The position numbers and the translations under genes are program-made. The notes beneath the pieces are model-generated. The model was not told the origin of the DNA, ran no database searches, and saw only the letters and a program-made list of their open reading frames with translations. A stretch of DNA of 52,764 nt, from positions 1-52,764 of the forward strand of contig JANJFQ010000002.1 of NCBI GenBank assembly GCA_025435355.1. Reading direction: 5' to 3'. Numbering within the stretch: the stretch's first letter is position 1; each line of letters begins with the position of its first letter. Below are positions 157 through 29,246 of the stretch, piece by piece. The DNA comes from Candidatus Methanophagales archaeon (GTDB lineage: Archaea; Halobacteriota; Syntropharchaeia; Alkanophagales; Methanospirareceae).

Positions 157-582
157 TTAAAAACGGAAATGAATTTTGTCTGGGGTTTTTAGGTTTGAAA
201 CAATTGATGCTTCCCCCTTTTCAATCCTAAGAAGAAGTCTATAATGTGTCCAGCTCAATTCGTGACGCAGTGCGTCACAATTTGGGAAAGTTTGATAAAA
301 GGATCTCATATTTCTTAGGTTCGACTCATCAAAACCTCTGCCATAGTCTTTTGTTAATCTTATAGATAACTCTTTTATAAGCCCTTTTCCATATTCTGCC
401 CTCTCTTCTCCTTTTTGTTCTTCCTCAACGATGATTCTGCCTACCTCCCAATAAGCCTGAACCATAGCAAAATTAACAGCGCGGTAGGCAGTGTTGCGTG
501 CTTTTTCTACTATTACTTTTATGTTCTGGTATGTGGTATCTATGGATGACTGCTCCTTTAACGCTACGTTTTCTTCACTCAT
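157..582 (-). pseudogene. DUF1016/YhcG-like protein, N-terminal fragment only (PD-(D/E)xK nuclease half missing)
   Basis: The 141-aa ORF has the N-terminal helical region typical of DUF1016 genes found inside type I R-M operons (AVNFAMVQAYWEVGRIIVEEEQ, LSWTHYRLLL). It stops far short of the usual length. Its start overlaps the hsdM stop by 8 nt. Confidence 0.5.
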
Positions 583-2128
583 TTCTGCTCCCCTCCAGTA
601 TCTTTACCACATTCTCGGCAATCTTCTCTTCAAACTCATGCGCTTCGGCGTTCAGCCGTTCCAGTTCTTCGTTTAGCTCATGCAATCTCTCGTTGAAATC
701 AAAATCCTCTTCTTCCTTTTCCGCAACACCCACATACCTGCCGGGGTTCAACGAATATCCCTGGTCTATGATTTCTTCTATAGTCGCCACATTGCAAAGT
801 CCGGGAATATCACGATATTCACTCTCTGGAAAATATTGTTCCATAAGTTTCTGGCTTCCTTTATCCGTTTCTACGCGCTCTTCACGGTAACGTCTCACGA
901 TATTGGCAATAAATTCTATCTGCTCAGGTGTAAATTCCCTGTGCGCACGGTCTATCTGCCGGTAAATACTGCGGGCGTCTATAAACAAAACATTGTCCTT
1001 GCGATTGGTATGCTTCTTTCCTGTATCAAAAAACCAGAGCGTGCAGGGCAATGTCACGGTATAAAAGAAATTCGGACCTATGGTAATCACTACACTCACC
1101 GCTCTATCTTCTACCAGTTTCTTTCGGATTTCCAGTTCTGACTGACGGGCATCGCTGGCTGAATTCGCCATCACAAAACCTGCTCTGCCGTTTTCATTCA
1201 ATGCATGCCAGAAAATCTGTATCCAGAGGTAATTGGCATTGTCCACTTTTGGAACGCCATAACCAAACCGCTTATCCGCTCTGGCTTTCTCCTTATCCAC
1301 GCCATTAACATTGAAAGGCGGATTTGCCATCACGAAGTCGAACTTACCGATGCTGTTGTGGAAATCTTCATAGTAAGTGTTGCCCTGCCGAATATCGCCT
1401 GATAGACCATGAACTGTGAGGTTCATCTTGCAAAGTCGCACTGTCTCTGCCGTCTTTTCCTGTCCGTAAATAGAGATTTCCGCACTGGGATTCTTTTTGT
1501 GTCTTTCTACAAATTTCGCACTCTGCACGAACATACCGCCAGAACCACAGGCGGGGTCATGGATTCTGCCGTGGTACGGTTCAATCACTTCCACGATGAG
1601 TTTTACCAGCGAGGTTGGAGTAAAAAACTCACCGCCTCTTTGCCCTTCAGCCATGGCGAACTTCCCTAGGAAATATTCATATATCTTCCCAAAGACATCG
1701 CCTTCAAGTGTCATGGGGATACTGGAGAATATTTTGAGCAGTGCGACAAGAACATCATTTTCCAGCCTGTTATAAGTTTTTGGAAGAACATCTTTCAGGT
1801 CTTCATTTTCTATTTCAATTGCTTTCATGGCATCGTTAATCGCTTTGCCTATGTTTTCTCCTTCCGGGAGATTCAAGAGATATGAAAAACGAGCATTCTC
1901 CGGAAGATAAAGAATACCTTTCGCCTGATAATCGGCTTTTGTGATTCCACGACGGCTACTCATCCGTTGTTTTTCTATTTCGTTTTTAGCAAGTGTGAAC
2001 TTATAGTCTGCGAAACGTAAGAAAATTAAACCCAGAACAGGGACGGAGTATTCAGAAGATTTAAGCCTCGAATTAGCCCTGAGTTGGTCCGCGGCATTCC
2101 ATAACCTTTTTTCTATTTCGTTTATCAC
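575..2128 (-). CDS. hsdM: Type I restriction-modification N6-adenine DNA methyltransferase subunit (HsdM)
   Basis: 517 aa. It has the HsdM N-terminal helix (LWNAADQLR), SAM-binding motif I ([10 protein letters not shown]) and catalytic motif IV NPPF (MANPPFN). Confidence 0.9.
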
Positions 2129-2388
2129 ATCAATCCCTCTTCTTTTAAACTTGTAAACCCATTTTTACCTATTATAATATGGTCAAGGATGTCAATGCCC
2201 ATAACCTTTCCGGTTTCGACCATTCTTTTTGTAATCTCTAAAACACCTTCCTTTTTTGTCCCTCTCCCTAAAATTATGGCTAATAATTCTGAGTTTTTCA
2301 ATGTACTGGGACCGTATTTCTTGAGTTTTTCCCCCGGTCTTTCCTCAAGGGGCAATTCTGTGATTTTTGGTTTGTATTCGATGTTCAT
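2125..2388 (-). pseudogene. RadC-like remnant (JAB/MPN core deleted)
   Basis: In this 87-aa ORF a RadC N-terminal segment ([19 protein letters not shown]) is joined directly to the extreme RadC C-terminus ([23 protein letters not shown]). There is a 4-nt overlap with the hsdM start. Confidence 0.5.
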
Positions 2389-2434
2389 TCTCGTTTGGTT
2401 ATTGAAACACTTCAGTTCTTTATTACTACCGGGA

Positions 2435-2923
2435 TTAACTTATTTGTTTCTGAGCGTGAACATCTGCCTTTTTTTCTTTAATTTGGCTAAGAAAATCTTC
2501 TAGTTCTTTGAGATTCCTTGCAATTCTATACTTTAGAACCCCCGTAATCAGAGGGTTATCTACGTCTGACATGAGTGTTCTTGAATCAGTTTTCAGACCA
2601 AGACATTCTTTCCCTAGAGCATAAGCATATCCAATCTCAACACATGCCCCTTCATCTGGGACTCTACCATCCATAACAAAAATCACAATATCCGATTTTT
2701 GAAGCTCATCAATGTCTCGCTTAAAAATTTTCTCCATAGCGAAGGATTTAGCTGTACCATTTGCTAATAGCTCCGATAGCTTATGGCCATCACGTTGTGG
2801 CAGAAATGTCTCAAAGCCTAGATTCTCAAGATATTCACTTAAATATTCGTTATACCGCATCTCGGCTTTCGAGAATAACGGGCCTGCCACATATATCCGT
2901 GTCATGCGTATCAAGCCCTCCAT
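2435..2923 (-). CDS. Nucleoside 2-deoxyribosyltransferase-family (NDT/DNPH1-like) protein
   Basis: Contains [12 protein letters not shown] near the N-terminus and [21 protein letters not shown] (the conserved Glu region of PF05014-type proteins). The likely true start is the ATG at 2905. Confidence 0.7.
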
Positions 2924-2984
2924 TGACCCCTCTTTTTATAACATTTGAGAGGGGCAGTGAAAGAACTAGTTTTTATTTTTATTT

Positions 2985-4229
2985 TTATGTTCCCATTATA
3001 AAAGATTGTCGATTTGGCTGCACTCCACACTGGGAGCAGAAACCCTCGCGAAATGTTGCAATTCTTTTTGGGAGCATAATTTCTTTGAACCTACTTTCAA
3101 AGTATCTATCCGTCATACCCGCTATATAATCCCTCACTTTTTCTTCAGAAGTAGAACTAGCAAGGTATTCTTTACTAATCCAATCGAGATCCATAAAATG
3201 TTCATATATTTTACTTTTATTTTCGTTTTCAAGGTCCTCTAAAAATTTTCGACAAAGTACCTTGTACATTTCTTCAATTTTTCCGGGTTCTGCTAATATC
3301 TTCTTATTATCGTAGATATTCTCTGTGTTAAAATCTTTATATTCCTCTACGCTTTTTGAAATTTCTGTCGAATACGAAATGTGATTTTTGCTATAACTAT
3401 TTTCGACTATATCAATAATAAGTGAGTTTATTATTCCGTCATTTTTTGTTCCAATATTTTCTATACAACGCTGTGGGACTTCCGAATCGTCATTTAGGAG
3501 GCCTATTTCTATTGCATCTTGAAGATCTCTACCTAAATATGCTATTGTATCGGCGAATCTTACAACACATCCTTCTAAAGTCATAGGAACACAATCTTTT
3601 TTATTTTTACCTTTGAATTTTATATCCTCTATTTCCTTATCAAATTTTTCCCAGTTCTTATCTGTATTGGGCTTTAATGATTTATTGTGGATTTCACCAT
3701 TATGACACAAAATTCCATCAAGTACTTGAAGCGTTAAATTACAATCTTCAATCTTATCAAGAAATTGAACACTTTGAACATTATGCAAGAATCTACCGAG
3801 TCCATGTTCTTCACACAATTCAGACAGAATTTTCTCACCTGGATGACCAAAGGGAACATGACCAATATCATGTCCTATTGAAATTGCCTCAATTAAATCT
3901 TCGTTTAATTTAAGGGCCCTTCCTATAGTTCGGGCAATCTTCGAAACCAGTTGGACATGAAGAACACGATGTGTAATATGATCGTTATCCACTAAAAAAA
4001 ATACTTGAGTTTTATCAATATATCTTGAATAAGCATGTGTATGCAAAATCCGATCAGCGTCTCTTGAGTATTTAGCCCGGAAATCCTCTGTATCTTTTTT
4101 CTTCCTTCTTAATCCCTCAGCACTTTTGGAAGCAAATTTTGATAAATACTCCTTTTCCCTCGTCGCAATATAAGACTTTATTTTTTTTTCTAAATCCTCT
4201 TTTAGTTTTTTCTCGTACTTATCCTTCAT
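2985..4229 (-). CDS. dGTPase-like dNTP triphosphohydrolase (HD domain)
   Basis: 414 aa. Motifs seen: RDADRILHTHAYSRYIDKTQVF, HITHRVLHVQLVS, IGHDIGHVPFGHPGE and C-terminal DYIAGMTDRYF. All are characteristic of the Dgt/dGTPase family. Confidence 0.85.
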   Translation of the reverse strand: MKDKYEKKLKEDLEKKIKSYIATREKEYLSKFASKSAEGLRRKKKDTEDFRAKYSRDADRILHTHAYSRYIDKTQVFFLVDNDHITHRVLHVQLVSKIARTIGRALKLNEDLIEAISIGHDIGHVPFGHPGEKILSELCEEHGLGRFLHNVQSVQFLDKIEDCNLTLQVLDGILCHNGEIHNKSLKPNTDKNWEKFDKEIEDIKFKGKNKKDCVPMTLEGCVVRFADTIAYLGRDLQDAIEIGLLNDDSEVPQRCIENIGTKNDGIINSLIIDIVENSYSKNHISYSTEISKSVEEYKDFNTENIYDNKKILAEPGKIEEMYKVLCRKFLEDLENENKSKIYEHFMDLDWISKEYLASSTSEEKVRDYIAGMTDRYFESRFKEIMLPKRIATFREGFCSQCGVQPNRQSFIMGT

Positions 4230-4333
4230 CAGATTGCCTCCCTAGTGAAGGGAATTATTTTCCCCCTCCTTTGAAACCTCGTAAACCCCGTAAATTCATC
4301 CTTCGGAATACTTTTGGTGATTTGGATACTCAT
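4229..4333 (-). pseudogene. 34-codon remnant of a type IIG R-M gene N-terminus, now an upstream ORF overlapping the dGTPase start
   Basis: The minus strand reads MSIQITKSIPKDEFTGFTRFQRRGKIIPFTREAI*. This is homologous to the start of the 1327-aa gene (MSHTNSNYSIIPKDKFTEFVEFQRAT). Its TGA overlaps the ATG of the dGTPase-like gene (TGATG). Confidence 0.6.
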
Positions 4334-4815
4334 ATTAATTTTGATATACAAAGTATGGATAAAAACCTTCTGATAAATCGAATTTTTTAATCAAAGGTTT
4401 CCAATTTTGTTAAGATATATTTGCTAATTTATTAACGAATATTTTAAAAAATTTTAAAAGGTACTAATTCACAAAATACCTTCGCTTTCCGCAACAGCCT
4501 TTAAAAGTAGCTAACCAAATGCGAAGATTTCAGATATGTGACGAGGGAAAGAACTGATATAAGCATGACACACTGGCTTTAACATGCCAGAAAGAGTCAC
4601 TGGGATGAATTACATGATTATTATACGCCACCTTCCCGCAGCAACCTTACCAGGCACAGTTCCAATTAACGAGGTTGTAAAGTTATCGTGTGTTCTCACT
4701 TGAAAAATAGTTACCCCATTTCGCGAAATAGCCATTTATGGTACAAGCACAGAATTGCGTGGCATCCCAGCCCTTTTATTTCGAGTTTACATCTGATCGC
4801 TTTTTACTGTAAACT
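4268..4815. repeat. R1 direct repeat, copy 1 (~550 bp; partner 20030-20597)
   Basis: Aligned by eye to 20030-20597 in the same orientation. There are long identical runs, including a 65-nt identical block (4607-4671 = 20383-20447). The homology is cut at 4815 by an IS fragment. Confidence 0.9.
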
Positions 4816-5037
4816 CTGGAAAGGCTCAATACATCGTGAACCATTTCATTTAACAAATAAAGGCTCAATACATCGCGAACTCTTTTTGATATAGACTCCA
4901 TAAAAGCATCCTTAGTGATGCTTTATGGATTTTGAGGAACAAGAGCGGATTGATTCCGTAAATAGGTATATTAGGGGCGATAAACCGGCGAATATTTGTA
5001 GAGACGTGGGTAGGTCAAAAACATGGCTCTTTACATG
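4816..5037 (+). mobile_element. Truncated copy (terminal ~220 bp) of the IS found intact at 14469-15912
   Basis: Contains the terminal repeat ctggaaaggctcaatacatcg, a second subterminal aaaggctcaatacatcgcgaac, and the first ~37 codons of the transposase (MDFEEQERIDSVNRYIRGDKPANICRDVGRSKTWLFT). Similarity ends near 5037. Orientation is opposite to the full copy. Confidence 0.85.
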
Positions 5038-5120
5038 CAAGTTGTGTCGGTAATTTTCTAACACTAGAAACCAATTTCAACAAACTCCCCTGAGTTCTTT
5101 ATATCCTAAGTTTCAGAGTT

Positions 5121-6172
5121 GTATGGGCTACACCCCTAAAAAAGCGCATCCGCAAACTCCAATTTTTCAATAATCTCCTTTTGCTCTTTAGTGAGAACAG
5201 AAATTTTATCACATTTTTCTCCTCCAAAATCAAGCGTAGTTTTTCTTATTCTACCCAGTTCATCCAGACTATCTTCAACACCTTCCCAACCCGCAACGCC
5301 TAAATGATGCTTATACAGTGCCAGAACCAAATATGCAAGATAGCAGATAAAAATATAAACGTCAATATTACCTTCCTCAAAATGCCTGACCGGCTGCAGA
5401 TCTAACCAGTTTTTGAAGCAATCGAATATCTTTTCAATGACATCTTTACCAAAATACGTAGAAATAATCTTAGATGCACTCTTCTCAAAATTCGTTGTGA
5501 AAAGCAAGCATTTACCATCTCGAAGCCTTGCATTTTTTCGATTTTCTGCGTGAGGATTTACTGTTATTTTTTTCCCGTCGTTGTTTATCTCGAAATTATT
5601 AAATTATTCCTTGAAGCCATCCCACGATCCATGATTATTGCATCAATGCTGAGATCTACCCGTTTGACATCTGCAATAAGTTGTTCTATCGTCCTTACAT
5701 CTGTTATATTACCCTCATACGTCCTGAAAAGGACGGGCAAACCTTTGTTCTTTGTTGCGACCAATCCCATGTTTATCTGAGGTAAGCTGTTATCATCCTG
5801 ATTGTATCCGGGTCGCGCTTTAGGCAATTTTGTCGAATAAAAATAAATCGTAAAGAACTGTTATGTCACCATATCTTACCGACTTTGTAATCTCAAACTC
5901 TTTAAAGCGTTTTTTCGGAGGGATTATCTGCTTTTCGCCATTTATTGTCACTTCTATACCTAAATAGCGGGTATTACGATGTTTTACTTTGCCTGAACTA
6001 TCCCTGTAGTTCTCCCGCTCATACACATATACGCGCGACCCGCGCCTTATTCTTGTTTTTGCCATGTAGTCTGTATATGGGCTACAAGTGTATATAGCTT
6101 TTGACGGGTTATGATTGAGTAATGCTCCTTAGATTATGATTTAGTACAGATACGTGATATTGTAGCCTATAA
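5121..6172 (-). mobile_element. Degenerate IS (IS1634/IS4-like) with candidate terminal inverted repeats
   Basis: tatgggctaca (5122-5132) and tgtagcctata (6161-6171) form a 10/11 inverted repeat. The interior holds three transposase fragments in different frames. Confidence 0.5.
5136..6065 (-). pseudogene. Fragmented DDE transposase (IS1634/IS4-like), three ORF pieces
   Basis: The pieces are 6065-5820 (RVYVYERENYRDSSGKVKHRNTRYLG, an N-terminus typical of IS1634-type transposases), 5827-5585 (a DDE-region piece, IIMDRGMAS) and 5507-5136 (a C-terminal piece). Their summed length is far below a full transposase. Confidence 0.55.
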
Positions 6173-6321
6173 AACCCATAATGTCAGGTTTTAACCCTCC
6201 TGTTGATTAGTTTACGAGGCACGCCGCCACACCCGAATGAATCGGGTGCATCCTTGATGGTGGGACTTACCTTTTTTTCATGCCTCTTTTGTTTTTCTTT
6301 CAAGTGCTTTTGCATATGGTG

Positions 6322-7806
6322 TTAACCACAAACAGACACTGGCTTGCAACTACCCTTGTTACAAGAAATCTTTCCATGAAGTGTAGTGCATCTGATCCCA
6401 CAAACAATAAAACAACATCGTTTTCTTTTTTCTAAAGGTTCGCTTAACCAGTTCATTTCACTTTCTATGCCTGTTTTTCTAATATTGGCAGGATAATAGT
6501 TGTCTATTTCTTTTAAAACGTCACCTAACTGATATTTCCATACACCACAATGTTTACTTTTTGGTTCTAACAGATTACGGTAAACACAATTTCCATAACA
6601 AAGCGGTAATACCTCACATTCTCGGCACTCTGGATCATCTAGTGGAGAATAGCCAATCCATTTGTTTAATGTGCCAGAAGTCATAACACCGTCTCTTAAA
6701 TTTCCAACCCTCTCCTTTTCATCTCCAATCGGCACCCAGCATTTTTGTAAGTTACCATTAGGTTCTACAACAAAGGCGTTATCCATTTCAGCGGCGCATA
6801 ATCCAAAAGTAGTGGCTGGGACCAAATAAGGTTCGGGATCCCATCCCTTTTGAATGGCCGTTTTATTAAAATTAACATAAGTTTCAGCAAAGAAATCATC
6901 TACTATACATTTTGTTGTAATATCATTACATGAGCGTATAGCCCCTATAGGTTCAATTTGACCGACATAAACCTGTACTTTATTTTTCAATCCTTCAGAT
7001 GCCAGATAATCTAAAAGCTTATCCAAACATGGCACATTATCTTTGTTAAGGTTTATTCTAAGGTATATCGATGGCAAAATGTCTAGTGCATTCTTAATGT
7101 TTTCGATAATGGTATCGAATGTACCCTTGTTGCCTTTGCTATATCTAGTTTTATTATGTATTTCCCTTGTACCATCCAGCGAAATTTGAACAAAGGTGAC
7201 GTTACTGTCTCTTAATTTCTTTGCATTTTCCTCAGTAAGCAGAACTCCATTAGTTATAATCCCCGAAGAGTATTCACAATTATGTTGAGAGCACAACTTT
7301 AAAAATCTATCGGTTAACTCAACAATGGTATCGACAGCTAATAGTGGCTCTCCTCCATACCATGACACACCAAAGTATTTAACATTCTCTAAATGTTTTT
7401 CAACAAATGTTACCAGTTCGTCCTGTACGGATTTGTCCATATGTTCCCTATTCTTCGCTTCATAACAATAAGGACAGTGTAAATTACAATCTGAAGTTGG
7501 CATAATTGTTAACCCAAAACTTGACGAATCAAACTTTCTCCTATTTACCAGAATCTCTATATTTTTTAACTCATCAAAATCATCATCTAAAATAAAACCT
7601 CCTTTCTTCATATCATCGACCGTAGTAATAAGCCTAATTACCTCTCTACTTTCTATTGTTATCTTTCCTTTGGTCAGTGAAGTTAGCGATTCGTATATCT
7701 CATAACCCGATTGGGATAATATGCCTAATGCGCCAGTAGCCGCATTAAATGCCACCCAGCTTCCATCTTCTCTTTTTTCAAAAAAGTTGAACTTAGATTT
7801 TTTCAT
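6322..7806 (-). CDS. Radical SAM / SPASM-domain enzyme (peptide-maturase-like) with a Cys-rich C-terminal extension
   Basis: Has the CxxxCxxC radical SAM motif (CNLHCPYC) and SPASM cysteines (CAAEMDNAFVVEPNGNLQKC, CRECEVLPLCYGNC, HCG). A ~55-aa tail follows, ending KRKRCCFIVCGIRCTTLHGKISCNKGSCKPVSVCG. The best start is the ATG at 7806, preceded by aggagg; the ORF track starts at a TTG at 7824. Confidence 0.85.
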   Translation of the reverse strand: MKKSKFNFFEKREDGSWVAFNAATGALGILSQSGYEIYESLTSLTKGKITIESREVIRLITTVDDMKKGGFILDDDFDELKNIEILVNRRKFDSSSFGLTIMPTSDCNLHCPYCYEAKNREHMDKSVQDELVTFVEKHLENVKYFGVSWYGGEPLLAVDTIVELTDRFLKLCSQHNCEYSSGIITNGVLLTEENAKKLRDSNVTFVQISLDGTREIHNKTRYSKGNKGTFDTIIENIKNALDILPSIYLRINLNKDNVPCLDKLLDYLASEGLKNKVQVYVGQIEPIGAIRSCNDITTKCIVDDFFAETYVNFNKTAIQKGWDPEPYLVPATTFGLCAAEMDNAFVVEPNGNLQKCWVPIGDEKERVGNLRDGVMTSGTLNKWIGYSPLDDPECRECEVLPLCYGNCVYRNLLEPKSKHCGVWKYQLGDVLKEIDNYYPANIRKTGIESEMNWLSEPLEKRKRCCFIVCGIRCTTLHGKISCNKGSCKPVSVCG

Positions 7807-7847
7807 CTTTCTCCTCCTTTTCAAAATTTGCCGAAGTCACTATACCC

Positions 7848-7930
7848 CGTACTTAAGTACGAAGCCTGTAATTAAGCAAGGGGTCTGTTTCAATATACGT
7901 TCATCATAGGGTATATATAAGCTTTTCGGT
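7848..7930 (-). promoter_or_regulatory. Promoter/5'-leader element P, copy A (upstream of the rSAM gene)
   Basis: On the minus strand ccgaaaagcttatatata looks like an archaeal BRE+TATA. A 27-nt block (7852-7878) is nearly identical to 23765-23791 and sits 46 nt from the start codon in both copies. It includes a perfect 14-bp palindrome, cgtacttaagtacg (7848-7861). Confidence 0.5.
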
Positions 7931-7994
7931 CACGTCATGTGGTCATGTGAAAAAATATTTGATACTACAACGCCATGTGAACCATTTTTCTATC

Positions 7995-8156
7995 GAACCT
8001 GGATAAATAAGCATGGTAACACAAACCAACTGAGAGAATGAACAGCTCATTCACAGGGGTTATTTCATGTTCGCTTTTTTCGAGTGAAAGCAGTGAAAGA
8101 TAAACCATTAAACCAAAGGAGATAGCATGGCTAAAAAGAAGGCGTTAATGGTTGGG
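7995..8156. repeat. R2 repeat, copy A
   Basis: Aligned by eye to 13770-13922 (copy C), including aaaggnga tagc ATGgctaa(a/g)aagaagg(c/a)gttaatggttggg. Confidence 0.7.
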
Positions 8157-8242
8157 CTTGCTTTTGTGATTCTATTTTTTGTTGGGTTTTTGAATTGTGA
8201 GACAACTGCTATAACCTGCATAAAAAGCTTCAATATTTCCTC

Positions 8243-8356
8243 TTACGCTCCGCACACACATACTCTGACATGCTTTATCGCTTCGTTCACATCTAATCTT
8301 TTTGAAATGAGATATGTTGCTACAATCATACTACTTCTACTTCCGATGCCAATCGT
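8243..8356 (-). pseudogene. 3' remnant of a second tyrosine/dual-specificity phosphatase gene
   Basis: The minus strand reads TIGIGSRSSMIVATYLISKRLDVNEAIKHVRVCVCGA*. This parallels GGIGRNGMVTAAYLISNGFNADDAMKHVRACCA of the 9488-9880 gene. It is out of frame with, and overlapped by, the 3' end of the 336-aa ORF. Confidence 0.6.
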
Positions 8357-9336
8357 TCATTTATAAAAAATCGTATTCTGCTAATGTTAGTTAAACGTCC
8401 CAAATAACCAGTAAAAGCAGCCGTTTCATCCGCAAGAAGTGACTTTCCTAATTCAATATCTCCAAAGTACCAAGTACCTTCCGATGTCCTGCTTATTATA
8501 TTATACTCGCCAATTTTGTTCACTTTAAAACACATAGGCATAGCAAATGTCCAATCAGAAGTTAATGGACTTCTCGATCTAACTTCTTCATAGTCATTTG
8601 GGTGGATTGAATTTTGTGACGCAGGATTTGGAATGACAATGAAAGAATTTTTCTTAGGGAATTCGTTAACAAGTAACAATACGCCGTCTAAGGCTATGTT
8701 TTTCATTTTTAACCATTTTTTAATTCCTTTCGTTAGATACTCTAAGCCAAAAGAAACATCACGCATATCTAATATCACAACCTTTCTATATCCAGAGTTT
8801 CTTTCTTTTTTCAAAATTTGACTTTTTGCGTGTTTTATCCCTTCTTGTGCTTTTCTTAAGAGATTCTTATGATACGGGATTGTAGATACAAGTATCTCAC
8901 TGGCATTATTTAAGATAATATTAGAATTTTGTTGCTGAGTGTAAGGAAATTGAATGACTGTTGGGCGATCCCCATATATTACCTGAGTGAAGGTATTTTG
9001 TGTAGCGTATTTTTCGGTTAGAAAAAGAAGTGTAGAGTTCAATCTTTTAATTTCGTCAAGTTCCCATGTAAGTGTTTTAACTTCGTATATAATTTTATCC
9101 TTCACAAAAGTGTGATCGCCCTTTCCTTCGTATTTGTGGTTATTTTCAAATTTGTAGGTTCTCCCGAGTAATTCGAGCGAATCTATTTCCGAGTGTTTGG
9201 ATAATAATTTATGAGCAATCTGATTTGTTTTTAATTCACCTATTAGATTTTTTATATCTGCTCCTTTCTTCCCTAAAGAGAGCGCTTTTTTCCTTAAGTT
9301 TCTTATAAATTCCGCTTTTTCTATGATGGTTATCAT
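8326..9336 (-). CDS. Hypothetical protein, 336 aa (no recognisable motif)
   Basis: A long uninterrupted ORF in AT-rich DNA, co-directional with the ATPase and phosphatase genes. An aggaaag lies upstream of the ATG. Confidence 0.6.
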   Translation of the reverse strand: MITIIEKAEFIRNLRKKALSLGKKGADIKNLIGELKTNQIAHKLLSKHSEIDSLELLGRTYKFENNHKYEGKGDHTFVKDKIIYEVKTLTWELDEIKRLNSTLLFLTEKYATQNTFTQVIYGDRPTVIQFPYTQQQNSNIILNNASEILVSTIPYHKNLLRKAQEGIKHAKSQILKKERNSGYRKVVILDMRDVSFGLEYLTKGIKKWLKMKNIALDGVLLLVNEFPKKNSFIVIPNPASQNSIHPNDYEEVRSRSPLTSDWTFAMPMCFKVNKIGEYNIISRTSEGTWYFGDIELGKSLLADETAAFTGYLGRLTNISRIRFFINERLASEVEVV

Positions 9337-9444
9337 CTTTCCTATTTAACATTCTTGTTTTTTATATAAATATCTTGCTATCCCTATCCCCCTGCAGTAA
9401 ACCTCCAACGATAAAGGGTATGTCAAATGTATATTCACCTCAAT

Positions 9445-9880
9445 TTATCCCGGTTCCCGAACAAAAATGCTCAATAGTTCTTCTTGCTCACGAGTTTCTA
9501 GTACTCTGGGCACAACATGCTCTGACATGCTTCATCGCATCATCTGCGTTGAATCCGTTTGAAATCAGGTATGCTGCTGTGACCATACCATTTCTTCCTA
9601 TACCGCCCGAACAATGCACTAACACAGCTTTTCCATCTTCAATTTCGCTGTTTATCCATTCTACAACATCGTGCAGCTCATCTAAACTCGGCGTTCCAAA
9701 ATCTAGAATGGGTAAGTGTTTCACTTTTGCACCGAATTCAGCCCACAGTTCCGGGGCATAATCAAATTCCCAGTTTTCTACAAGTATCGCAACGGCTTTG
9801 AATGTCCTGGACAAATCCTTTATTTGCTATTCTGATGGCATCGGAGCCATTGCAAGTTTTTCTGCTATCCATGAGACCAT
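9445..9880 (-). pseudogene. Archaeal PTP/dual-specificity phosphatase gene with an in-frame TAG and a probable 3' frameshift
   Basis: Has the HCxxGxxR P-loop (HCSGGIGRNG). The ATG at 9880 gives MVSWIAEKLAMAPMPSE-TAG(9829-9827)-QIKDLSRTFKAVAILVENWEF in one frame. After HVRACCAQST the family-like tail ETREQEELLSIFVREPG* appears in another frame, ending at 9445. Confidence 0.75.
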
Positions 9881-9897
9881 TTTTTCGGATTTGTGTC

Positions 9898-11973
9898 TTA
9901 CCTCTCATAAAAAGGAACGGCATCAAATCTTATTGCATCCCTGTTACTTGAGAACTTCACATAAGCTGAGAACTTAGAGGATAGGTCATTCTTTACATTC
10001 TGCCATGTAACTTTACCGCCAAGATGCTCAGCAATGCTTTTAGCGTATTTCGGATCGGTCAGTTGCAATGACATAATTCCGCCTATGTTATTGTAAACGA
10101 CATCGGTAAAGTCCACAGGGTCTTGCGTTGCAAGGAGCATTCCAACACCATACTTCCTCGCTTCTTTAAGTAATTGCCCTGCTGATGCCTCCCTTTCGTA
10201 TTTAAGGCGATGTGCCTCGTCAATGGTGACGTATAACCTTGGCTCTCGGGATTCTCCAAGTTTATCGAGGTAATATCTCAGTTTTCGCATAAAGAACTCA
10301 CAAACCACTGATTTAAGCTTCTCATTGGGTAAAATTCCTAGATTCACAACTGTTTGACCTTTCGTAATTTTCTCAAAAGGCATCACAGTTTTAGCAGAAA
10401 ATATCCTATAGTCAAAAATAGGGTCTAATCTGGCAAATATGCCTTCAATTGAAGACCTTGTCCCGCTATCTCCTCCCTCAAATATCCTATTTAAGTTATT
10501 TTGGATATCATCAAACGTTGGCGGGACATTGTTCCAGCTATCCTCCTCCTCTTCGTTGATACTCTTGTCTTCATAGCTATGTTTGATAGCACTTCGGATG
10601 TATCCTATTTGCCTTTCACCAATATTATAAACCAAGTCAATGATGTCTGAAATCTGGTATTTCTGATCTTTTGGAGTGTTATCGCCATCAAGTTCAAGTG
10701 GATTGATTGATATTGTGCTCAAATCTAATATTTGACCAAATTCTGATTCTTTTTCTTTTGAAATATAATCGTTCCGGAAGTCAAAAATTATATATGGGAG
10801 CTTAAATTTCGCAAATTCGGAAAGAATAGCTTTTACTGTTTGTGTCTTTCCAGTTCCCGCACTTCCAACGATAACAAAACTCCAGTTAATCTCCTTTTTT
10901 GGCTCCCAAAAAATCTCTTTGTTGTTTTTATCACTACCTAAAAGTATTTTCAGATCAGAAGGAGATGGGATTGGAGGCTTAATCTCTTCCTTTACGTCAG
11001 TTATAACCTTAACGACCTCTTTTTCTTCTTCTTTGCCTTTTCCTTCAATTCTCTCTGACGAAGTTTCAAAAATGGGCTCCAACAGATTCTTTTCAAGCCA
11101 ATCTTCGTATCTACGTCTGTTTTTAATCGAAAACGGAGCTTGTGAACCCTGAAAACCCCGATACTTGCTTGTTATCCCCATTTCCGCCATTTTATTTACG
11201 GTTTCTTTAATTTTTTCCTCGTCAAGCTCAGCGCTTATCAGTTGTTCCCACAAAAAATCCCTAAACGCATCTGAGGAATAAGGATGAGCAAAATAAGAGT
11301 AAGATAATACACCATATATCCTAATTTTGTCGTGTTCTTCGGGTGTAGTTGTAAAGGCTTCTTTTGGGCAAAGTTCCATCAAAACCTCGAAAACTTCTGG
11401 AGCGATAACATAATTTTCTTCACGAAGACCCTTCGCAACATAGTGCTTTGTTCTGATACACAATCCAAATCCCTCTAGCTTCATTAATACAGAAGTCCAA
11501 GCTCTGTGGATTTTGTTGCTCTTTCTAAGGCGGTCCTTCCAGTTAAAACCAACTATGTCACCTGCATCAACTGGATAAATAAATTCTCTATACTCCTTTT
11601 TTAGATAATGCTCCTGGATAATAAAATTTAAGATCTTTTGTGGTTGTTCATTCAAAAATCTCTCTATATCTTCTTTATTTTCGTCAATTAGGTTAGTTAC
11701 CGCCAGTTCACCAATTTTTAATCCCTTTTCCGTAGTGCAATAGAGATGATTAGAGTAATATTTACCCTCCTCAATGTAGTTGTGCTTCAACAACAATGCA
11801 ATGAGTTTAGTATCAAATTTATAGCAATCCTGCTGTAATATACCATATCCATTCCCAACATTTTGCCCGATATAAATATCCCTTATGATTTCGATGCATT
11901 GAGATATCTCATCATCGTTCAAATCTTCTTCCTTCAATTCTTCTTTAAGATCTGCCAAATTGGAATCATCCAT
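9898..11973 (-). CDS. HerA/FtsK-superfamily (DUF87/AAA_10-like) P-loop ATPase with a ~340-aa uncharacterised N-terminal region
   Basis: Walker A is VIVGSAGTGKTQT and Walker B is LYVTIDEAHRL, followed by ARKYGVGMLLATQDPVDF, which is typical of HerA/VirB4-like ATPases. The N-terminal 340 aa show no motif I recognise. Confidence 0.8.
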   Translation of the reverse strand: MDDSNLADLKEELKEEDLNDDEISQCIEIIRDIYIGQNVGNGYGILQQDCYKFDTKLIALLLKHNYIEEGKYYSNHLYCTTEKGLKIGELAVTNLIDENKEDIERFLNEQPQKILNFIIQEHYLKKEYREFIYPVDAGDIVGFNWKDRLRKSNKIHRAWTSVLMKLEGFGLCIRTKHYVAKGLREENYVIAPEVFEVLMELCPKEAFTTTPEEHDKIRIYGVLSYSYFAHPYSSDAFRDFLWEQLISAELDEEKIKETVNKMAEMGITSKYRGFQGSQAPFSIKNRRRYEDWLEKNLLEPIFETSSERIEGKGKEEEKEVVKVITDVKEEIKPPIPSPSDLKILLGSDKNNKEIFWEPKKEINWSFVIVGSAGTGKTQTVKAILSEFAKFKLPYIIFDFRNDYISKEKESEFGQILDLSTISINPLELDGDNTPKDQKYQISDIIDLVYNIGERQIGYIRSAIKHSYEDKSINEEEEDSWNNVPPTFDDIQNNLNRIFEGGDSGTRSSIEGIFARLDPIFDYRIFSAKTVMPFEKITKGQTVVNLGILPNEKLKSVVCEFFMRKLRYYLDKLGESREPRLYVTIDEAHRLKYEREASAGQLLKEARKYGVGMLLATQDPVDFTDVVYNNIGGIMSLQLTDPKYAKSIAEHLGGKVTWQNVKNDLSSKFSAYVKFSSNRDAIRFDAVPFYER

Positions 11974-12112
11974 AATATCAAAATGTTGTGCGGTACTTAA
12001 ATATATGACTTTCGAAATATATAACCCAGAATGAACAAGGGGCCGTCACGCGAAAATGCTTTTTTAGTGCGGTAACATTTCCACACTCGTTTCTCGCAAC
12101 TTCTTGTTGAGT

Positions 12113-12310
12113 AGAGTTCATATCCCACATCACCCTAGTGTCATCACTGCATGTTACCCGACTGGATGCAATGTTCAGTTCTGAGGTGGTGGCACCTTTC
12201 CTCAGGTTGAATTTCCACCAACTGGATAATACGAATTTTGCTCGGCACACACATGTAGCTTCGGTTTCGGGTTCAGCGTTTTTCCGGTAAGCGGTTGGCG
12301 ACTGAAAGAA
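12113..12310. repeat. R2 repeat, copy B
   Basis: Aligned by eye to 13686-13860 (catcac.gc.tgttacc..gactggatg.aa.gttcagtt...caccaactggata...tttgctcggca.ac). It carries an extra hairpin-forming insert, ctgaggtggtggcacctttcctcag. Confidence 0.7.
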
Positions 12311-12525
12311 GTTCGCCGATAAGCTAATTTGTGCTGAACGAAGCGAGCTATATAGCTCATGATAAGTGGGTGCGACGGAGTAACAAAACTAATTTCATAT
12401 ATTTTTTAAAAATCAATAAAACGAATGCTCTTTTTTGTTCAAAAATCGCTATTTGATTTCATATAATTCACCAACCGTGATTTTCCACTCTATTCATGCC
12501 CAAAGTAGTTACATTTCCCCAAATC

Positions 12526-12975
12526 TCAAAATTCTAACTCAAACTCATCTTCAACTTCTTCTTTTAACGCACCCTCATGGATTGTCCGTTTGATTCTTTT
12601 CATCGTAATTCGGTTTAAGTTGTATCTCTTGCTTACATACCTTTTTTCTTTTGATTTTTCCTTGAGATAATTATAAAGCTGCAATGTAACCCAGCCATAA
12701 GCTACAATATCCATCACTTCTCTAATCCCTGTCAATAATATGGTGATATCAACACAATCCTCAGTTGAAATAGACTCTATTACTATCGGCAATCTCTTTG
12801 GTATCTTTTTATTGGGGATAATGTCCCTATCCTCCCATTGTAGTCGAAATTCTATAACTCCTCGATTAATTATAGAGAATATCCAGTTCAGATCACTACT
12901 TTTCAAAAACTTGTAGTCAATATGAATTCCGATACTATATCCAACTTGATCAATATCTCGTATCAACTCTTTCAT
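12526..12975 (-). CDS. Hypothetical protein, 149 aa
   Basis: The ORF lies immediately downstream of, and co-directional with, the membrane-protein gene. It has an acidic C-terminus and no recognisable motif. Confidence 0.45.
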   Translation of the reverse strand: MKELIRDIDQVGYSIGIHIDYKFLKSSDLNWIFSIINRGVIEFRLQWEDRDIIPNKKIPKRLPIVIESISTEDCVDITILLTGIREVMDIVAYGWVTLQLYNYLKEKSKEKRYVSKRYNLNRITMKRIKRTIHEGALKEEVEDEFELEF

Positions 12976-13118
12976 GTTTCCACCTCTTTATTTGACAGGA
13001 ATATATGGAGCTTGCACTTACATAAAGTTTACTGGATTCAAATATGCACATAAATATCCATGATTTTAGCAACAATGAACAAAAAACACTCAATTGGAAT
13101 TGCATTTGTGATTCTATT

Positions 13119-13502
13119 TCAAAGAATAGCGAATATCGCGGTATCTCCCAATATTACTGCTCTGTAAATTTCAGAAATTATCACAGCAATTATTATTCCG
13201 GTCCCAGTAAGACCAAGATAATCCTCAATGACACCATAATGAAAAATCTGTTTCCAAAAATTGCGTATAGTCTTTATTTTGGATTTTGAACTGTGCTTGG
13301 CTGCTTTATTGACTAACCATGTTTTTGTGAAAATTTTATCAAGAGAGATTAAAAGAATACCACCCAGCATTGCAACCTCAGAATAATTTTGAGAAATCAT
13401 AATTAAAACAAAAGTGAAAACTATTATCAACAACAAAATAAGAATCCGCGGACGCACATTGTTTGGGTCATGTGTATCACCCATCCCTCCTTTAATTCTC
13501 AT
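13119..13502 (-). CDS. Hypothetical small membrane protein (about 3 predicted TM helices)
   Basis: Hydrophobic stretches are ILILLLIIVFTFVLIMI, AMLGGILLISL and GTGIIIAVIISEIYRAVIL. The gene sits directly downstream of R2 copy C. Confidence 0.5.
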   Translation of the reverse strand: MRIKGGMGDTHDPNNVRPRILILLLIIVFTFVLIMISQNYSEVAMLGGILLISLDKIFTKTWLVNKAAKHSSKSKIKTIRNFWKQIFHYGVIEDYLGLTGTGIIIAVIISEIYRAVILGDTAIFAIL

Positions 13503-13685
13503 TTTTTATTTCCTCCAAGAACGCTATTTCCCAGCATTAATTTTTTCCATTTTTCATCCTTAAGATTGCGCATAACTTCGGTATATCCGACATCAATGTC
13601 GTATATCCCTCCTTGTCGCAATCATAGCATAGGATATATATAAACATTTCTATACGCGAAATAATTATTAATTATTATCGAGTAG

Positions 13686-13922
13686 ATCTCATATACCACA
13701 TCTCCTTGGCTTCATCACAGCCTGTTACCAGCCAGACTGGATGTAAGGTTCAGTTCAGAAGGTTGGATTTTCACCAACTGGATAGATAGTATGAACTTTG
13801 CTCGGCATACTCATATTTGCTTTGGTTTTCAGCTTTATCGCTTTTTCAGGTGAAAGTAGGGGAGAATAAAACGTTAAATCAAAGGTGATAGCATGGCTAA
13901 GAAGAAGGAGTTAATGGTTGGG
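13686..13922. repeat. R2 repeat, copy C (longest; shares its left half with B and its right half with A)
   Basis: See copies A and B. It ends with a truncated MAKKKELMVGKLS* start. Confidence 0.7.
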
Positions 13923-13991
13923 AAACTATCTTAAGCTTAGTTTTAAGGATATATGGGTATGAAAAGGTAAGAACTAACCTCTTATATTATC

Positions 13992-14468
13992 TTAAATCTC
14001 CGGGTCTATACCTATGCTTTTTAGTTTACAAAAAAGTTTGGCAAGAATATCATCAATCGTTTTAATATCTTGTTTCTTAAATGAAGAGAGTTTTTTATAA
14101 TTTTCTTTCTTGTCATACAGTGATTTCTTATAATCCTGCCAAGTAAGAGGAATCGGATATCTCCCCCATATAACCGCAAAAATTGACAATCTCTTTAACA
14201 GGTCTTTCTCAGTTTTTGTGAAGCTTTCTAAAATATTAGCATCTTTGAATAATTCTATCAGATTATGTTTTTGTATTTTTCCGTTGAGTTTTCCATTATT
14301 GACATGGGTATCAGGTTCTTCATGTATAAGGATGCACTTGATTAGGTTCTCAAAGGCAAATGAATTTAGCATCATGTAGGTGTTAATATAATGGTATATT
14401 GGCAAGTCATCATTATCCTCGATTAAGAGTTTTTTTGCGGCGGATAGTAAACCCGTTGCCTTATTAAG
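13992..14468 (-). pseudogene. HEPN-like protein gene, 3' portion, interrupted by IS insertion
   Basis: Motifs are AFENLIKCILI, KIQKHNLIELF and WGRYPIP (HEPN-like helices and an RYP signature). The frame stays open upstream (LNKATGLLSAAKKLLIEDNDDL) right up to the IS boundary. Confidence 0.5.
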
Positions 14469-15912: not shown

Positions 15913-16028
15913 CTATATGGATTCTTGACTATGTCTTCGTACATATTAATCCATTCATCTTCGGTAATTTTACTCAAATCCCTTTCTTTTAAACGGATGT
16001 CTTTTAACTTAATGTTGATTTTGACCAT
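15909..16028 (-). pseudogene. 39-codon ORF: probable 5' part (or upstream partner) of the IS-interrupted HEPN-like gene
   Basis: aggag is followed by ATG at 16028: MVKINIKLKDIRLKERDLSKITEDEWINMYEDIVKNPYS. It ends in the TAG formed by the CTAG at the IS junction. Confidence 0.4.
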
Positions 16029-16117
16029 ATACACACTCCTATATTCTTGTAAGAGGCGGGATTTCTGGATTTCAACAGCGAGAAACTAAGTTGGAGTTTG
16101 GTGCAATAGCAGGTTTG

Positions 16118-29016: not shown

Positions 29017-29240
29017 TCAAGCAGCTCCCTCCACAACTCAAGCGTCTCTTTCGCCTCGTGCTCATCCATTATCTCAATCGCAAAACCTGCGTGAACAATT
29101 ACGTAATCGTCTATTTTAGCATCTACCAGTGATATATCACTCTCACGAGAAACGCCGCCGAAATCAGCTTTTGCCTTTGCTCTTGTGCCTTCTTTGCCTT
29201 TGCTGATTTCCACCACTTTCGCGGGTATTGCTAAACACAT
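29013..29240 (-). CDS. hypC: Hydrogenase maturation protein HypC
   Basis: 75 aa starting MCLAIPAKVVEI. There is a 4-nt overlap with hypD. Confidence 0.9.
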   Translation of the reverse strand: MCLAIPAKVVEISKGKEGTRAKAKADFGGVSRESDISLVDAKIDDYVIVHAGFAIEIMDEHEAKETLELWRELLE

Positions 29241-29246
29241 CTTATC

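What the first reader, a model, noticed from the sequence alone, without database searches (positions are those of the whole stretch)
6322..7806. Radical SAM/SPASM enzyme carrying a Cys-rich C-terminal tail behind a KRKR motif: possible maturase fused to its own substrate peptide
Seen:
- The radical SAM CxxxCxxC motif and the SPASM cysteine motif are complete by ...SKHCGVWKY.
- About 55 further residues follow, ending LEKRKR-CCFIVCGIRCTTLHGKISCNKGSCKPVSVCG (8 Cys in 33 aa).
- No separate precursor ORF is seen nearby, and the gene stands alone between IS debris and R2.

Established: SPASM/twitch rSAM enzymes commonly install thioether or other crosslinks in Cys-rich RiPP precursors.

Inference: the tail may be a fused core peptide released at the basic site, or an extra metal/FeS-binding module.
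Basis: partly seen in the sequence, partly recalled or inferred. Interest (0 to 1): 0.65.

Follow-up and report, generated by a model that had tools for sequence, protein, structure and literature searches.

The report
Peptide-crosslinking enzyme fused to its substrate
A radical-SAM enzyme of the kind that crosslinks small cysteine-rich peptides has what looks like a complete copy of such a peptide (docking motif plus cysteine-rich core) fused to its own C-terminus, so one mobile gene may encode both enzyme and substrate, an arrangement I found no report of for this enzyme class.

Summary
The ORF is real: 6322-7806, minus strand, 494 aa, GGAGG ribosome-binding site. It has an N-terminal peptide-recognition domain (RRE), a CxxxCxxC radical-SAM core and a complete 7-Cys SPASM domain ending at C420. 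About 55 extra residues follow. The last 31 hold 7 Cys, not 8 in 33.

The tail is not a frameshift. Fifteen homologs (43-95% identical, independent assemblies) keep it in frame. It sits behind a hypervariable 20-49-aa linker.

The tail looks like a whole precursor peptide. MNWLSEP, 6 residues, then R|CCFIVC... mirrors the free precursors of the nearest untailed relatives (MKFIKEP, 7-8 residues, then G|FCVVC.../GG|WCLFI...). AlphaFold models MNWLS as a β-strand that disappears when the RRE is deleted. The Cys-rich core is modelled as disordered.

Tailed genes are always solitary, with no precursor, peptidase or exporter nearby. Untailed relatives have all three. No free-standing copy of the tail was found anywhere.

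Best reading (about 0.55): a natural maturase-precursor fusion that crosslinks its own tail, or a partner's. Release after the invariant Arg is untested. Main rival: an extra Fe-S or metal-binding tail.

The window's host is an ANME-1 archaeon. All other placed carriers are Clostridia, so the gene was probably transferred horizontally as a single-gene unit.

The parts
6322..7806 (-). Complete CDS of the tailed radical SAM/SPASM protein (494 aa plus stop codon at 6322-6324)
   Evidence: Pfam Radical_SAM 6.9e-20 and Fer4_12. Best NCBIfam matches are Cys-rich-peptide maturases, all below their cut-offs.
7813..7817 (-). GGAGG ribosome-binding site, 6 nt upstream of the ATG
   Evidence: Read directly from the sequence.
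7531..7806 (-). N-terminal RiPP recognition element (RRE, residues 1-92): three β-strands (7-11, 17-21, 26-30) and three helices (32-40, 53-68, 79-91)
   Evidence: AF2 model with pLDDT above 90 for most of the domain. Foldseek top hits are CteB 5WGG/5WHY, aligned over 448-456 columns.
6910..7530 (-). Radical SAM core (residues 93-299), with C107xxxC111xxC114 at 7465-7488
6532..6909 (-). SPASM domain (residues 300-425) with the seven-Cys motif C337, C356, C394, C397, C403, C407, C420, plus nearly invariant C300
   Evidence: Invariant columns. Cys positions. NCBIfam rSAM/SPASM maturase profiles align through this region.
6457..6531 (-). Post-SPASM helix and hypervariable linker (residues 426-450). 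Measured from the conserved ...V[LI] at residue 431 to the invariant Trp, the linker is 20-49 aa across the clade and 7-20% identical.
   Evidence: AF2 pLDDT 62 for residues 441-450.
6418..6456 (-). Leader-like segment M451-N-W-L-S-E-P-L-E-K-R-K-R463. W453 and R463 are invariant. Residues 451-455 are modelled as a β-strand.
   Evidence: strand lost and pLDDT falls from 78 to about 37 without the RRE; best match in the whole protein, rank 1 of 488, to a leader matrix built only from free-standing precursors.
6325..6417 (-). Cys-rich core-like segment C464-G494 (CCFIVCGIRCTTLHGKISCNKGSCKPVSVCG). It has 7 Cys, 5 of them at clade-conserved positions.
   Evidence: 51% mean identity, about the same as the enzyme core. 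AF2 pLDDT below 50.
6248..7835 (-). Single-gene block shared at 96% nucleotide identity with three other metagenome contigs. The flanks on both sides are unrelated.
   Evidence: blastn (L014-L016)

Best explanation
The gene encodes a CteB/Clo7bot-type radical SAM/SPASM peptide maturase that has a whole precursor peptide fused to its C-terminus through a flexible linker.

Inferred mechanism:
1. The leader-like segment (M-x-W-L-x-E-P in the window, [VIL]-x-W-[VIL]-Y-x-G in other subclades) docks as a β-strand on the enzyme's N-terminal RRE.
2. This brings the Cys-rich core, about 10 residues downstream, to the active site and the open-coordination auxiliary Fe-S cluster.
3. 5'-deoxyadenosyl-radical chemistry then installs intramolecular crosslinks, most likely Cys thioethers. 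This would happen either in the enzyme's own tail or in the tail of a partner protomer, as in borosins.

Shown here: the domain architecture, conservation of the tail, its leader and core layout, solitary genomic occurrence, and absence of any free copy.

Inferred: RRE docking (AlphaFold only), the chemistry (by family analogy), and any release of the product after the invariant Arg.

The gene behaves as a self-contained, horizontally mobile one-gene unit. In this window it sits in a defence and mobile-element island of an ANME-1 archaeon.
For: 1. The enzyme class is clear. It has the rSAM motif, a full SPASM motif and an RRE. The best family matches are all Cys-rich-peptide maturases (Clo7bot TIGR04334 at 317 bits, TIGR04463, CefB). 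The best fold matches are CteB, TigE and anSME.

2. The tail is conserved in frame in 15 proteins at 43-95% identity. W, R, four Cys, V, R, L and P are invariant. Its core is as conserved (0.51) as the rSAM core (0.56), while the linker is hypervariable (0.07-0.20) and 20-49 aa long. That pattern fits a tethered functional module.

3. The nearest untailed relatives use separately encoded Cys-rich precursors of the same size and layout. L005 has five tandem copies of MKFIKEPELQEINGG|WCLFINN...C... plus a protein with a Peptidase_C39 domain. L017 (Clo7bot) has seven copies of MKFIKEPxxKFxLG|FCVVCDTNC... plus an ABC exporter. L007 has a Cys-rich ORF overlapping the maturase stop codon. The tail reads MNWLSEP-LEKRKR|CCFIVCGIRC....

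4. With a scoring matrix built only from the 12 free leaders, the tail heptamer is the top-scoring site of the whole protein in the window's subclade (rank 1 of 488, score 15.9, against a per-protein maximum of 11.1±2.0 in 105 untailed homologs). It ranks 4-94 of about 500 in the other subclades.

5. AF2 models residues 451-455 as a β-strand (pLDDT 78) between a weaker linker and a disordered core. The strand is lost and confidence falls to about 37 when the RRE is removed. In CteB the leader binds the RRE as a β-strand at β3/α3 and a substrate Cys contacts auxiliary cluster I (PMC8326336).

6. All seven tailed loci examined (the window, L001-L004, L010, L019) are solitary. They share no conserved neighbours and have no peptidase, exporter or Cys-rich small ORF nearby.

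7. No free-standing tail-like peptide exists among 1.84 billion representative proteins, in 185,579 species genomes or in a DNA-level metagenome scan, where the only true hits were in frame with the enzyme.

8. The RRE and the leader-like segment are the two most divergent structured parts between subclades (0.32 and 0.24, against 0.46-0.55 for the catalytic domains). This fits co-divergence of binding partners.
Against: - No biochemical evidence exists.
- The profile-profile comparison of tails against free precursors is not significant (hhalign probability 0.1%). No precursor family model hits the tail, and the local Pfam copy lacks the Clo7bot peptide model even as a positive control.
- The leader resemblance was noticed by eye before it was tested, and it is weak in the most distant subclades.
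- The ΔRRE control used a shallower alignment (23 against 64 sequences). Overall confidence fell too, so the loss of the strand is not a clean result.
- Most clade members have C-x3-C-x2-C in the tail, a classic Fe-S-binding spacing.
- Genuine Clo7bot maturases with separate precursors also end in short Cys clusters. A Cys-rich C-terminus therefore need not be a substrate.
- The core is unusually conserved for an antimicrobial RiPP.
- There is no linked protease or exporter, so how or whether a product is released is unexplained.
Confidence: 0.55

Rival explanations
1. The tail is an additional Fe-S or metal-binding module. It would act as a fourth cluster site or a metallochaperone-like tail that serves electron transfer, cluster assembly or repair for the enzyme. 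The true substrate would be encoded elsewhere.
For: Five conserved Cys. Most members have C-x3-C-x2-C (CFIVCxRC). The tail is conserved at the same level as the catalytic core. Clo7bot maturases that have separate precursors also carry short Cys clusters of 3-5 Cys at their C-termini.
Against: No Fer4 or other family hit, even at E ≤ 10. AF2 models the tail as disordered (pLDDT below 50). The Cys spacing changes to C-x3-C-x3-C in the window's subclade. The module hangs on a hypervariable 20-49-aa linker and is preceded by a conserved non-Cys strand whose modelling depends on the RRE. No conserved candidate substrate gene lies next to any of the seven loci, although this enzyme class is normally clustered with its precursor.
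Confidence: 0.22
2. The tail is a tethered pseudo-substrate, an autoinhibitory or regulatory element. It would occupy the RRE and active site without being productively modified, or be modified only once. This would gate an enzyme whose real target is another protein or peptide supplied in trans.
For: It fits the same docking evidence as the best explanation. The core is highly conserved. No release or export machinery is linked.
Against: No candidate trans substrate is conserved near any copy. Retention of five Cys at fixed positions plus conserved acceptor-like residues (T/S, L, K-P-V) is more than a simple plug would need.
Confidence: 0.1
3. The tail is also, or only, made as a free peptide by internal translation initiation at M451. 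This would be a nested in-frame precursor gene, so the fusion would be partly an annotation view.
For: In the window's subclade the leader-like motif starts with an in-frame ATG preceded by a purine-rich GAAAGTGAA. Free precursors start with exactly this motif.
Against: In the other subclades the equivalent codon is GTT, GTC, ATT or ATC, with no Shine-Dalgarno-like sequence upstream, yet the tail is equally conserved. No stop codon separates enzyme and tail in any member.
Confidence: 0.06
4. Artefact. A frameshift, a lost stop codon or an assembly error joins the enzyme to non-coding or out-of-frame sequence.
For: None found.
Against: Three independent contigs at 96.6% identity have the same length with no indels, with 20 synonymous and 27 non-synonymous codon changes. 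Fifteen homologs from unrelated assemblies with 35-54% GC keep the tail in frame.
Confidence: 0.01

Closest known systems
CteB / SCIFF system (ranthipeptide thioether synthase, PDB 5WGG/5WHY)
   Same: Same three-domain build: RRE, radical SAM, and SPASM with two auxiliary clusters. It is the best structural match (E 5e-20, TM 0.62-0.71). Its substrate is a conserved Cys-rich peptide. Its leader binds the RRE as a β-strand and a substrate Cys contacts auxiliary cluster I (PMC8326336). Both occur in Clostridia.
   Different: CteA is a separate gene next to CteB, whereas here the peptide is covalently part of the enzyme. Sequence identity is only about 19%. The SCIFF maturase model TIGR03974 scores 89 bits against a cut-off of 425.
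Clo7bot system (TIGR04334 maturase with tandem Clo7bot Cys-rich peptides) and the related TIGR04463 and CefB (NF038107) maturases
   Same: These are the closest sequence families (317, 292 and 247 bits). The precursors have an MKFIKEP-type leader, a short spacer and a core of 5-8 Cys in 20-40 aa that starts aromatic-Cys-hydrophobic-hydrophobic-Cys. The tail has the same layout.
   Different: All scores are far below the family cut-offs (600, 525 and 600), so this is a separate sister clade. Clo7bot loci carry up to seven free precursors, an ABC exporter and a LytTR regulator. The tailed clade has none of these. The residue before the core is Gly or Gly-Gly in the free precursors and an invariant Arg in the tail.
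Borosins (omphalotin OphA/OphMA)
   Same: This is the established precedent for a RiPP core fused to the C-terminus of its own modifying enzyme and modified autocatalytically (PMC6514808). Both use SAM.
   Different: The enzyme there is an N-methyltransferase, not a radical SAM enzyme. The chemistry is backbone methylation. A dedicated prolyl oligopeptidase releases and cyclises the product. The borosin described is fungal. The two are not homologous.
QhpD / QhpC (quinohemoprotein amine dehydrogenase maturation)
   Same: A radical SAM/SPASM enzyme, distantly related here (TIGR03906, E 4e-21), installs Cys thioether crosslinks in a Cys-rich polypeptide that is not a secreted natural product but stays in the cell as part of a protein (PMC8326336).
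   Different: QhpC is a separate subunit of a defined enzyme complex encoded in a conserved operon. No such partner genes accompany the tailed clade.

Membership tests
Radical SAM/SPASM RiPP maturases (CteB-like) | CxxxCxxC motif binding the SAM-cleaving [4Fe-4S] cluster | tested here: met
   C107, C111 and C114 are invariant in 64 homologs. Pfam Radical_SAM 6.9e-20.
Radical SAM/SPASM RiPP maturases (CteB-like) | C-terminal SPASM seven-Cys motif (C...G...C, gap, Cx2Cx5Cx3C, gap, C) for two auxiliary clusters | tested here: met
   C337, C356, C394, C397, C403, C407 and C420 are all invariant or nearly so. The Pfam SPASM model itself did not reach E 0.1, but NCBIfam rSAM/SPASM maturase profiles align through the region.
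Radical SAM/SPASM RiPP maturases (CteB-like) | N-terminal RRE (winged helix: three strands, three helices) | tested here: met
   Shown only by the AF2 model and the Foldseek alignment to CteB over 448-456 columns. No RRE-specific HMM was run.
Radical SAM/SPASM RiPP maturases (CteB-like) | Adjacent, separately encoded precursor peptide gene | tested here: not met
   No Cys-rich small ORF within 3 kb in the window or in L001-L004. The fused tail appears to replace it.
Radical SAM/SPASM RiPP maturases (CteB-like) | SAM-dependent crosslinking of the peptide substrate | not testable with these tools
   Needs anaerobic biochemistry and mass spectrometry.
Clo7bot maturase, TIGR04334 (equivalog) | Score at or above the curated cut-off of 600 bits | tested here: not met
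   316.7 bits. TIGR04463 likewise scores 292 against 525, and CefB NF038107 scores 247 against 600.
Enzyme-core fusion RiPPs (borosin-like logic) | Modifying enzyme and core peptide in one polypeptide, conserved across homologs | tested here: met
   In frame in 15 homologs plus 2 further metagenome loci. The identity of the tail as a core is inferred.
Enzyme-core fusion RiPPs (borosin-like logic) | Borosin-type SAM-dependent N-methyltransferase domain | tested here: not met
   The domains are Radical_SAM and SPASM only. This may work like a borosin, but it is not a member of that family.
Enzyme-core fusion RiPPs (borosin-like logic) | Autocatalytic modification and proteolytic release of the core | not testable with these tools
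   No linked protease was found.
Ferredoxin-like or other Fe-S cluster domains (for the tail) | Match to a known Fe-S domain model, with fixed cluster-binding Cys spacing | tested here: not met
   No Pfam or NCBIfam hit at E ≤ 10. The spacing is CxxxCxxC in most members but CxxxCxxxC in the window's subclade. AF2 models the tail as disordered. Cluster binding as such cannot be excluded by computation.
Clo7bot-type precursor peptides (for the tail) | Sequence-profile similarity to free precursors | tested here: inconclusive
   hhalign probability 0.1% (negative). A position-specific leader matrix ranks the tail heptamer 1 of 488 in the window's subclade and 4-94 of about 500 in the others (positive). 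The Clo7bot peptide Pfam model is absent from the local library.

The most novel reading that the evidence does not exclude
This would be a complete one-gene RiPP pathway. A radical SAM/SPASM maturase carries its own leader and core in cis, crosslinks them autocatalytically or between protomers, and releases a thioether-bridged 25-31-residue peptide by cleavage after the invariant Arg using a host protease. The unit is compact enough to move between bacteria (Clostridia) and archaea (ANME-1) as a 1.6-kb cassette.
Probability: 0.3. Interest if true: 0.8.

Novelty: new variant of a known kind. Interest (0 to 1): 0.66.

Why it matters
Radical SAM/SPASM maturases are a major source of new peptide chemistry. 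Genome mining for them relies on finding a separate precursor gene next to the enzyme.

- A natural enzyme-precursor fusion would show that "orphan" maturases can hide their substrate inside their own reading frame. It would extend the borosin-type self-modifying logic to radical chemistry.
- It would offer a covalently tethered enzyme-substrate complex. According to the review read, the CteB and SkfB structures were solved without the core sequence and the modified residues were not observed in SuiB. A built-in 1:1 substrate could help solve that problem.
- The gene's presence in an ANME-1 archaeon, while all other placed carriers are Clostridia, is a neat case of inter-domain transfer of a self-sufficient biosynthetic unit.
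- The clade is rare: 5 of about 185,000 species genomes.

Tried and rejected
- Tail against NCBIfam and Pfam, including trimmed versions starting at M451: no hits at E ≤ 10. The local Pfam copy also failed to recognise genuine Clo7bot peptides, so that negative result says little.
- hhalign of the tail alignment (A2) against the free-precursor alignment (A6): not significant.
- Enzyme-based scan of metagenome contigs: pattern matches but no confirmed relatives.
- DNA-pattern scan for CFIVCxRC[TS]xL: 52 matches. Only 2 were real, and both were in frame with the enzyme.
- The only other hit in the 1.84-billion-protein profile search (P0121) is an unrelated 820-aa repeat protein.
- Internal initiation at M451 was considered and largely rejected, because the other subclades have non-start codons there.
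- Frameshift or assembly artefact: rejected.
- Literature searches for natural radical SAM-precursor fusions and for Clo7bot, CefB or TIGR04463 biochemistry found nothing relevant. Most subscription-journal papers are not in the library, so prior description cannot be ruled out.
- Sigma-70 promoter and terminator scans were uninformative for an archaeal host.
- No RNA runs hold the gene, so expression is unknown.
Full report
**1. What is there**

The minus-strand ORF 6322-7806 starts at an ATG six bases after a GGAGG and encodes 494 aa. Pfam finds Radical_SAM and Fer4_12. The best NCBIfam matches are all maturases of Cys-rich ribosomal peptides: Clo7bot TIGR04334 (317 bits), TIGR04463 (292), CefB (247), geopeptide, FlmE/OhkG, PapB and SCIFF. 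Every one is far below its curated cut-off, and each aligns only up to residue 413-442.

The rSAM motif is C107/C111/C114. The seven SPASM cysteines are C337, C356, C394, C397, C403, C407 and C420, and they are invariant across 64 homologs.

An AlphaFold2 model (mean pLDDT 86) shows an N-terminal three-strand, three-helix RRE, the TIM-barrel core and the SPASM domain. Its best PDB matches are the thioether synthase CteB, then TigE, anSME, ChlB and SuiB.

The segment after KRKR is 31 residues with 7 Cys, not 8 in 33.

**2. The tail is real and defines a small clade**

Among 941 homologs, only the top 15 (P0001-P0015, 43-95% identical) cover the whole query. All others are about 440 aa and stop soon after the SPASM domain.

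In those 15, the tail is kept in frame with invariant W453, R463, four Cys, V, R, L and P, plus a fifth nearly invariant Cys.

Region-by-region identity within the clade:

| Region | Mean pairwise identity |
|---|---|
| RRE | 0.42 |
| rSAM core | 0.56 |
| SPASM | 0.65 |
| Linker | 0.20 (0.07 between subclades; length 20-49 aa) |
| Leader-like segment | 0.41 |
| Cys-rich core | 0.51 |

Three independent contigs carry a 96.6%-identical copy of identical length, with 20 synonymous and 27 non-synonymous codon differences. Four of the non-synonymous changes fall in the loop between the fourth and fifth Cys, and none falls in the leader-like segment. A frameshift or sequencing artefact is excluded.

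**3. What the tail resembles**

The nearest untailed relatives sit in classical RiPP clusters.

- P0016 (L005) follows five tandem precursor genes, such as MKFIKEPELQEINGG|WCLFINNDGCNPHNCSCEG.... A protein with Radical_SAM and Peptidase_C39 domains is also present.
- P0017 (L007) is followed by an 82-aa, 13-Cys ORF that overlaps its stop codon, and by an ABC exporter.
- A genuine Clo7bot locus (L017) has seven precursors, MKFIKEPxxKFxLG|FCVVCDTNCDNKC..., an ABC exporter and a LytTR regulator.

The window's tail reads M451-N-W-L-S-E-P, then six residues, then R|CCFIVCGIRC.... The heptad, the spacing and the opening of the core (aromatic or Cys, then Cys, then β-branched hydrophobic residues, then Cys) are the same.

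The formal tests were mixed. hhalign of the tail alignment against the precursor alignment is not significant, and no family model hits the tail. A matrix built only from the 12 free leaders, however, picks the tail heptamer as the single best site in the 494-aa protein for the window's subclade. Its rank is 1 of 488 and its score 15.9, against a per-protein maximum of 11.1±2.0 in 105 untailed homologs. The equivalent position ranks 4-94 of about 500 in the other subclades.

I treat this as supportive, not decisive. The resemblance was first seen by eye.

**4. Structure-prediction evidence**

In the full-length model, the linker (441-450) has pLDDT 62. Residues 451-455 (MNWLS, including the invariant Trp) form a β-strand with pLDDT 78. 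The Cys-rich 462-494 is below 50, which means disordered.

When residues 1-92 (the RRE) are removed, the strand disappears and confidence at that segment falls to about 37.

This is what is expected if the segment docks on the RRE as CteA's leader does on CteB, as a β-strand at β3/α3 with a substrate Cys reaching auxiliary cluster I (PMC8326336).

Caveats: the control alignment was shallower, overall confidence dropped as well, and I could not read coordinates to see the pairing directly.

**5. Genomic behaviour**

The seven tailed loci examined share no neighbours, and none has a peptidase, an exporter or a Cys-rich small ORF.

| Locus | Neighbourhood |
|---|---|
| L001 | iscS/iscU/mnmA and TetR |
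| L002 | Central metabolism |
| L003 | Sporulation genes, a PhD/ParE pair and an AlbA_2 protein |
| L004 | Transposase |
| L010 | IstB-like ATPase |
| L019 | IS1 fragment and a type IIG restriction enzyme |
| Window | HsdM, HD protein, transposase debris, HerA-like ATPase, integrase, MmeI-like enzyme |

The block shared with the 96% relatives is just window 6248-7835. That is the gene plus 29 bp upstream and 74 bp downstream.

The clade is rare. Five of 185,579 species genomes carry it, all of them Clostridia, Peptococcaceae or Desulfoscipio MAGs.

No free-standing tail-like peptide exists among 1.84 billion representative proteins. A DNA-level metagenome scan found only two true hits, both in frame with the enzyme.

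**6. Host**

The window's housekeeping genes are archaeal: HMG-CoA reductase, ApgM, GGPP synthase, an MvhD/FlpD-Fer4 protein and HypD/E/F. The reductase is 84-93% identical to ANME-1 or 'Methanomicrobia' MAG proteins. The gene is found in cold-seep and marine-sediment metagenomes.

All the more distant carriers are Clostridia. The window's copy is therefore probably an inter-domain acquisition that landed in a defence and mobile-element island.

**7. Interpretation**

The most economical reading (about 0.55) is a natural maturase-precursor fusion. The tail is a complete leader plus core, tethered by a flexible linker. It is presented to the RRE and the active site, and it is crosslinked there, most likely by Cys thioethers, by analogy with CteB, PapB and QhpD. 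Modification could occur in cis or between protomers, as in borosins (PMC6514808).

Release after the invariant Arg is possible but unsupported. 'KRKR' itself is not conserved (SRGR, SRAR and STRR also occur), and no protease or exporter is linked.

The main rival (about 0.22) is an extra Fe-S or metal-binding tail. In its favour are the CxxxCxxC spacing in most members and the short Cys clusters at the C-termini of genuine Clo7bot maturases. Against it are the disordered prediction, the lack of any domain match, the altered spacing in the window's subclade, the hypervariable tether, the RRE-dependent strand, and the absence of any other substrate.

A pseudo-substrate or regulatory tail (about 0.1) and internal initiation at M451 (about 0.06, since the other subclades have GTT, GTC, ATT or ATC there) remain minor options.

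**8. Novelty**

The protein belongs to the rSAM/SPASM maturase superfamily but to none of its named equivalogs. I found no paper describing a natural radical SAM-precursor fusion. The library lacks many subscription papers, so this is not proof of absence.

I rate it a new variant of a known kind: borosin-like fusion logic applied to radical SAM thioether-type chemistry.

Noticed in passing
window 1-52764 (e.g. 43260-44474, 37479-38732, 31099-33147, 27943-30191): The window's host is an ANME-1 (Methanophagales) archaeon. Its HMG-CoA reductase is 84-93% identical to ANME-1 or 'Methanomicrobia' MAG proteins. ApgM, an MvhD/FlpD-Fer4 protein and HypD/E/F are present. The tailed rSAM gene is otherwise found in Clostridia, which implies inter-domain transfer.
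   Followed up: partly
window 575-20101: The gene lies in a defence and mobile-element island: type I HsdM (575-2128), HD-domain protein (2985-4229), broken transposase-like ORFs (5136-6065), HerA/DUF87 ATPase (9898-11973), rve integrase (14564-15799) and an MmeI/Eco57I-like type IIG enzyme (16118-20101). Another tailed homolog (L019) also sits next to an IS1 fragment and a type IIG restriction enzyme. L003 sits near a PhD/ParE pair and an AlbA_2 protein.
   Followed up: partly
window 8258-8338 and 9515-9595: An 81-nt direct repeat (74% identity) duplicates the 3' part of a dual-specificity phosphatase gene fragment (9488-9814). The 336-aa ORF between the copies (8326-9336) has no Pfam match.
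   Followed up: no
window 6216-6286 (minus strand): A stable RNA hairpin lies just downstream of the stop codon (whole 131-nt fold -34.2 kcal/mol, z = -3.0). It straddles the end (6248) of the block shared with the 96%-identical contigs. It could be a terminator or processing element, or a recombination boundary.
   Followed up: no
window 47256-47361 (minus strand): Rfam calls a 106-nt tRNA (53 bits) that ARAGORN misses in its bacterial default mode. This is probably an intron-containing archaeal tRNA.
   Followed up: no
P0049, P0057, P0067, P0070, P0073, P0075, P0078 (e.g. L017 3501-4853): Genuine Clo7bot-type maturases that have separate precursors end in short Cys clusters, such as ...CACTGQGCCCD and ...CEKGCCSCG (3-5 Cys in the last 10-18 residues). 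Their role is unknown. This bears on how Cys-rich C-termini in this superfamily should be read.
   Followed up: partly
P0080 / L018 3501-4967: Another rSAM/SPASM homolog carries an unrelated 74-aa post-SPASM extension with 5 Cys (...TTRLCFLVDPV...CPDYSASCGSPKLWWRL). It sits beside tRNA synthetase genes with no precursor called nearby. It may be an independent fusion.
   Followed up: no
P0019 (635 aa): A Clo7bot-like maturase has an N-terminal extension of about 200 aa that contains an HExxH motif (CYHELVHIF). It may be a leader-peptidase-maturase fusion.
   Followed up: no
L007 2942-3190: In the untailed relative P0017, the 82-aa, 13-Cys precursor ORF overlaps the maturase stop codon by 4 nt. 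Loss of a single stop codon or a frameshift there would create an enzyme-precursor fusion, which is a plausible evolutionary route to the tailed clade.
   Followed up: no
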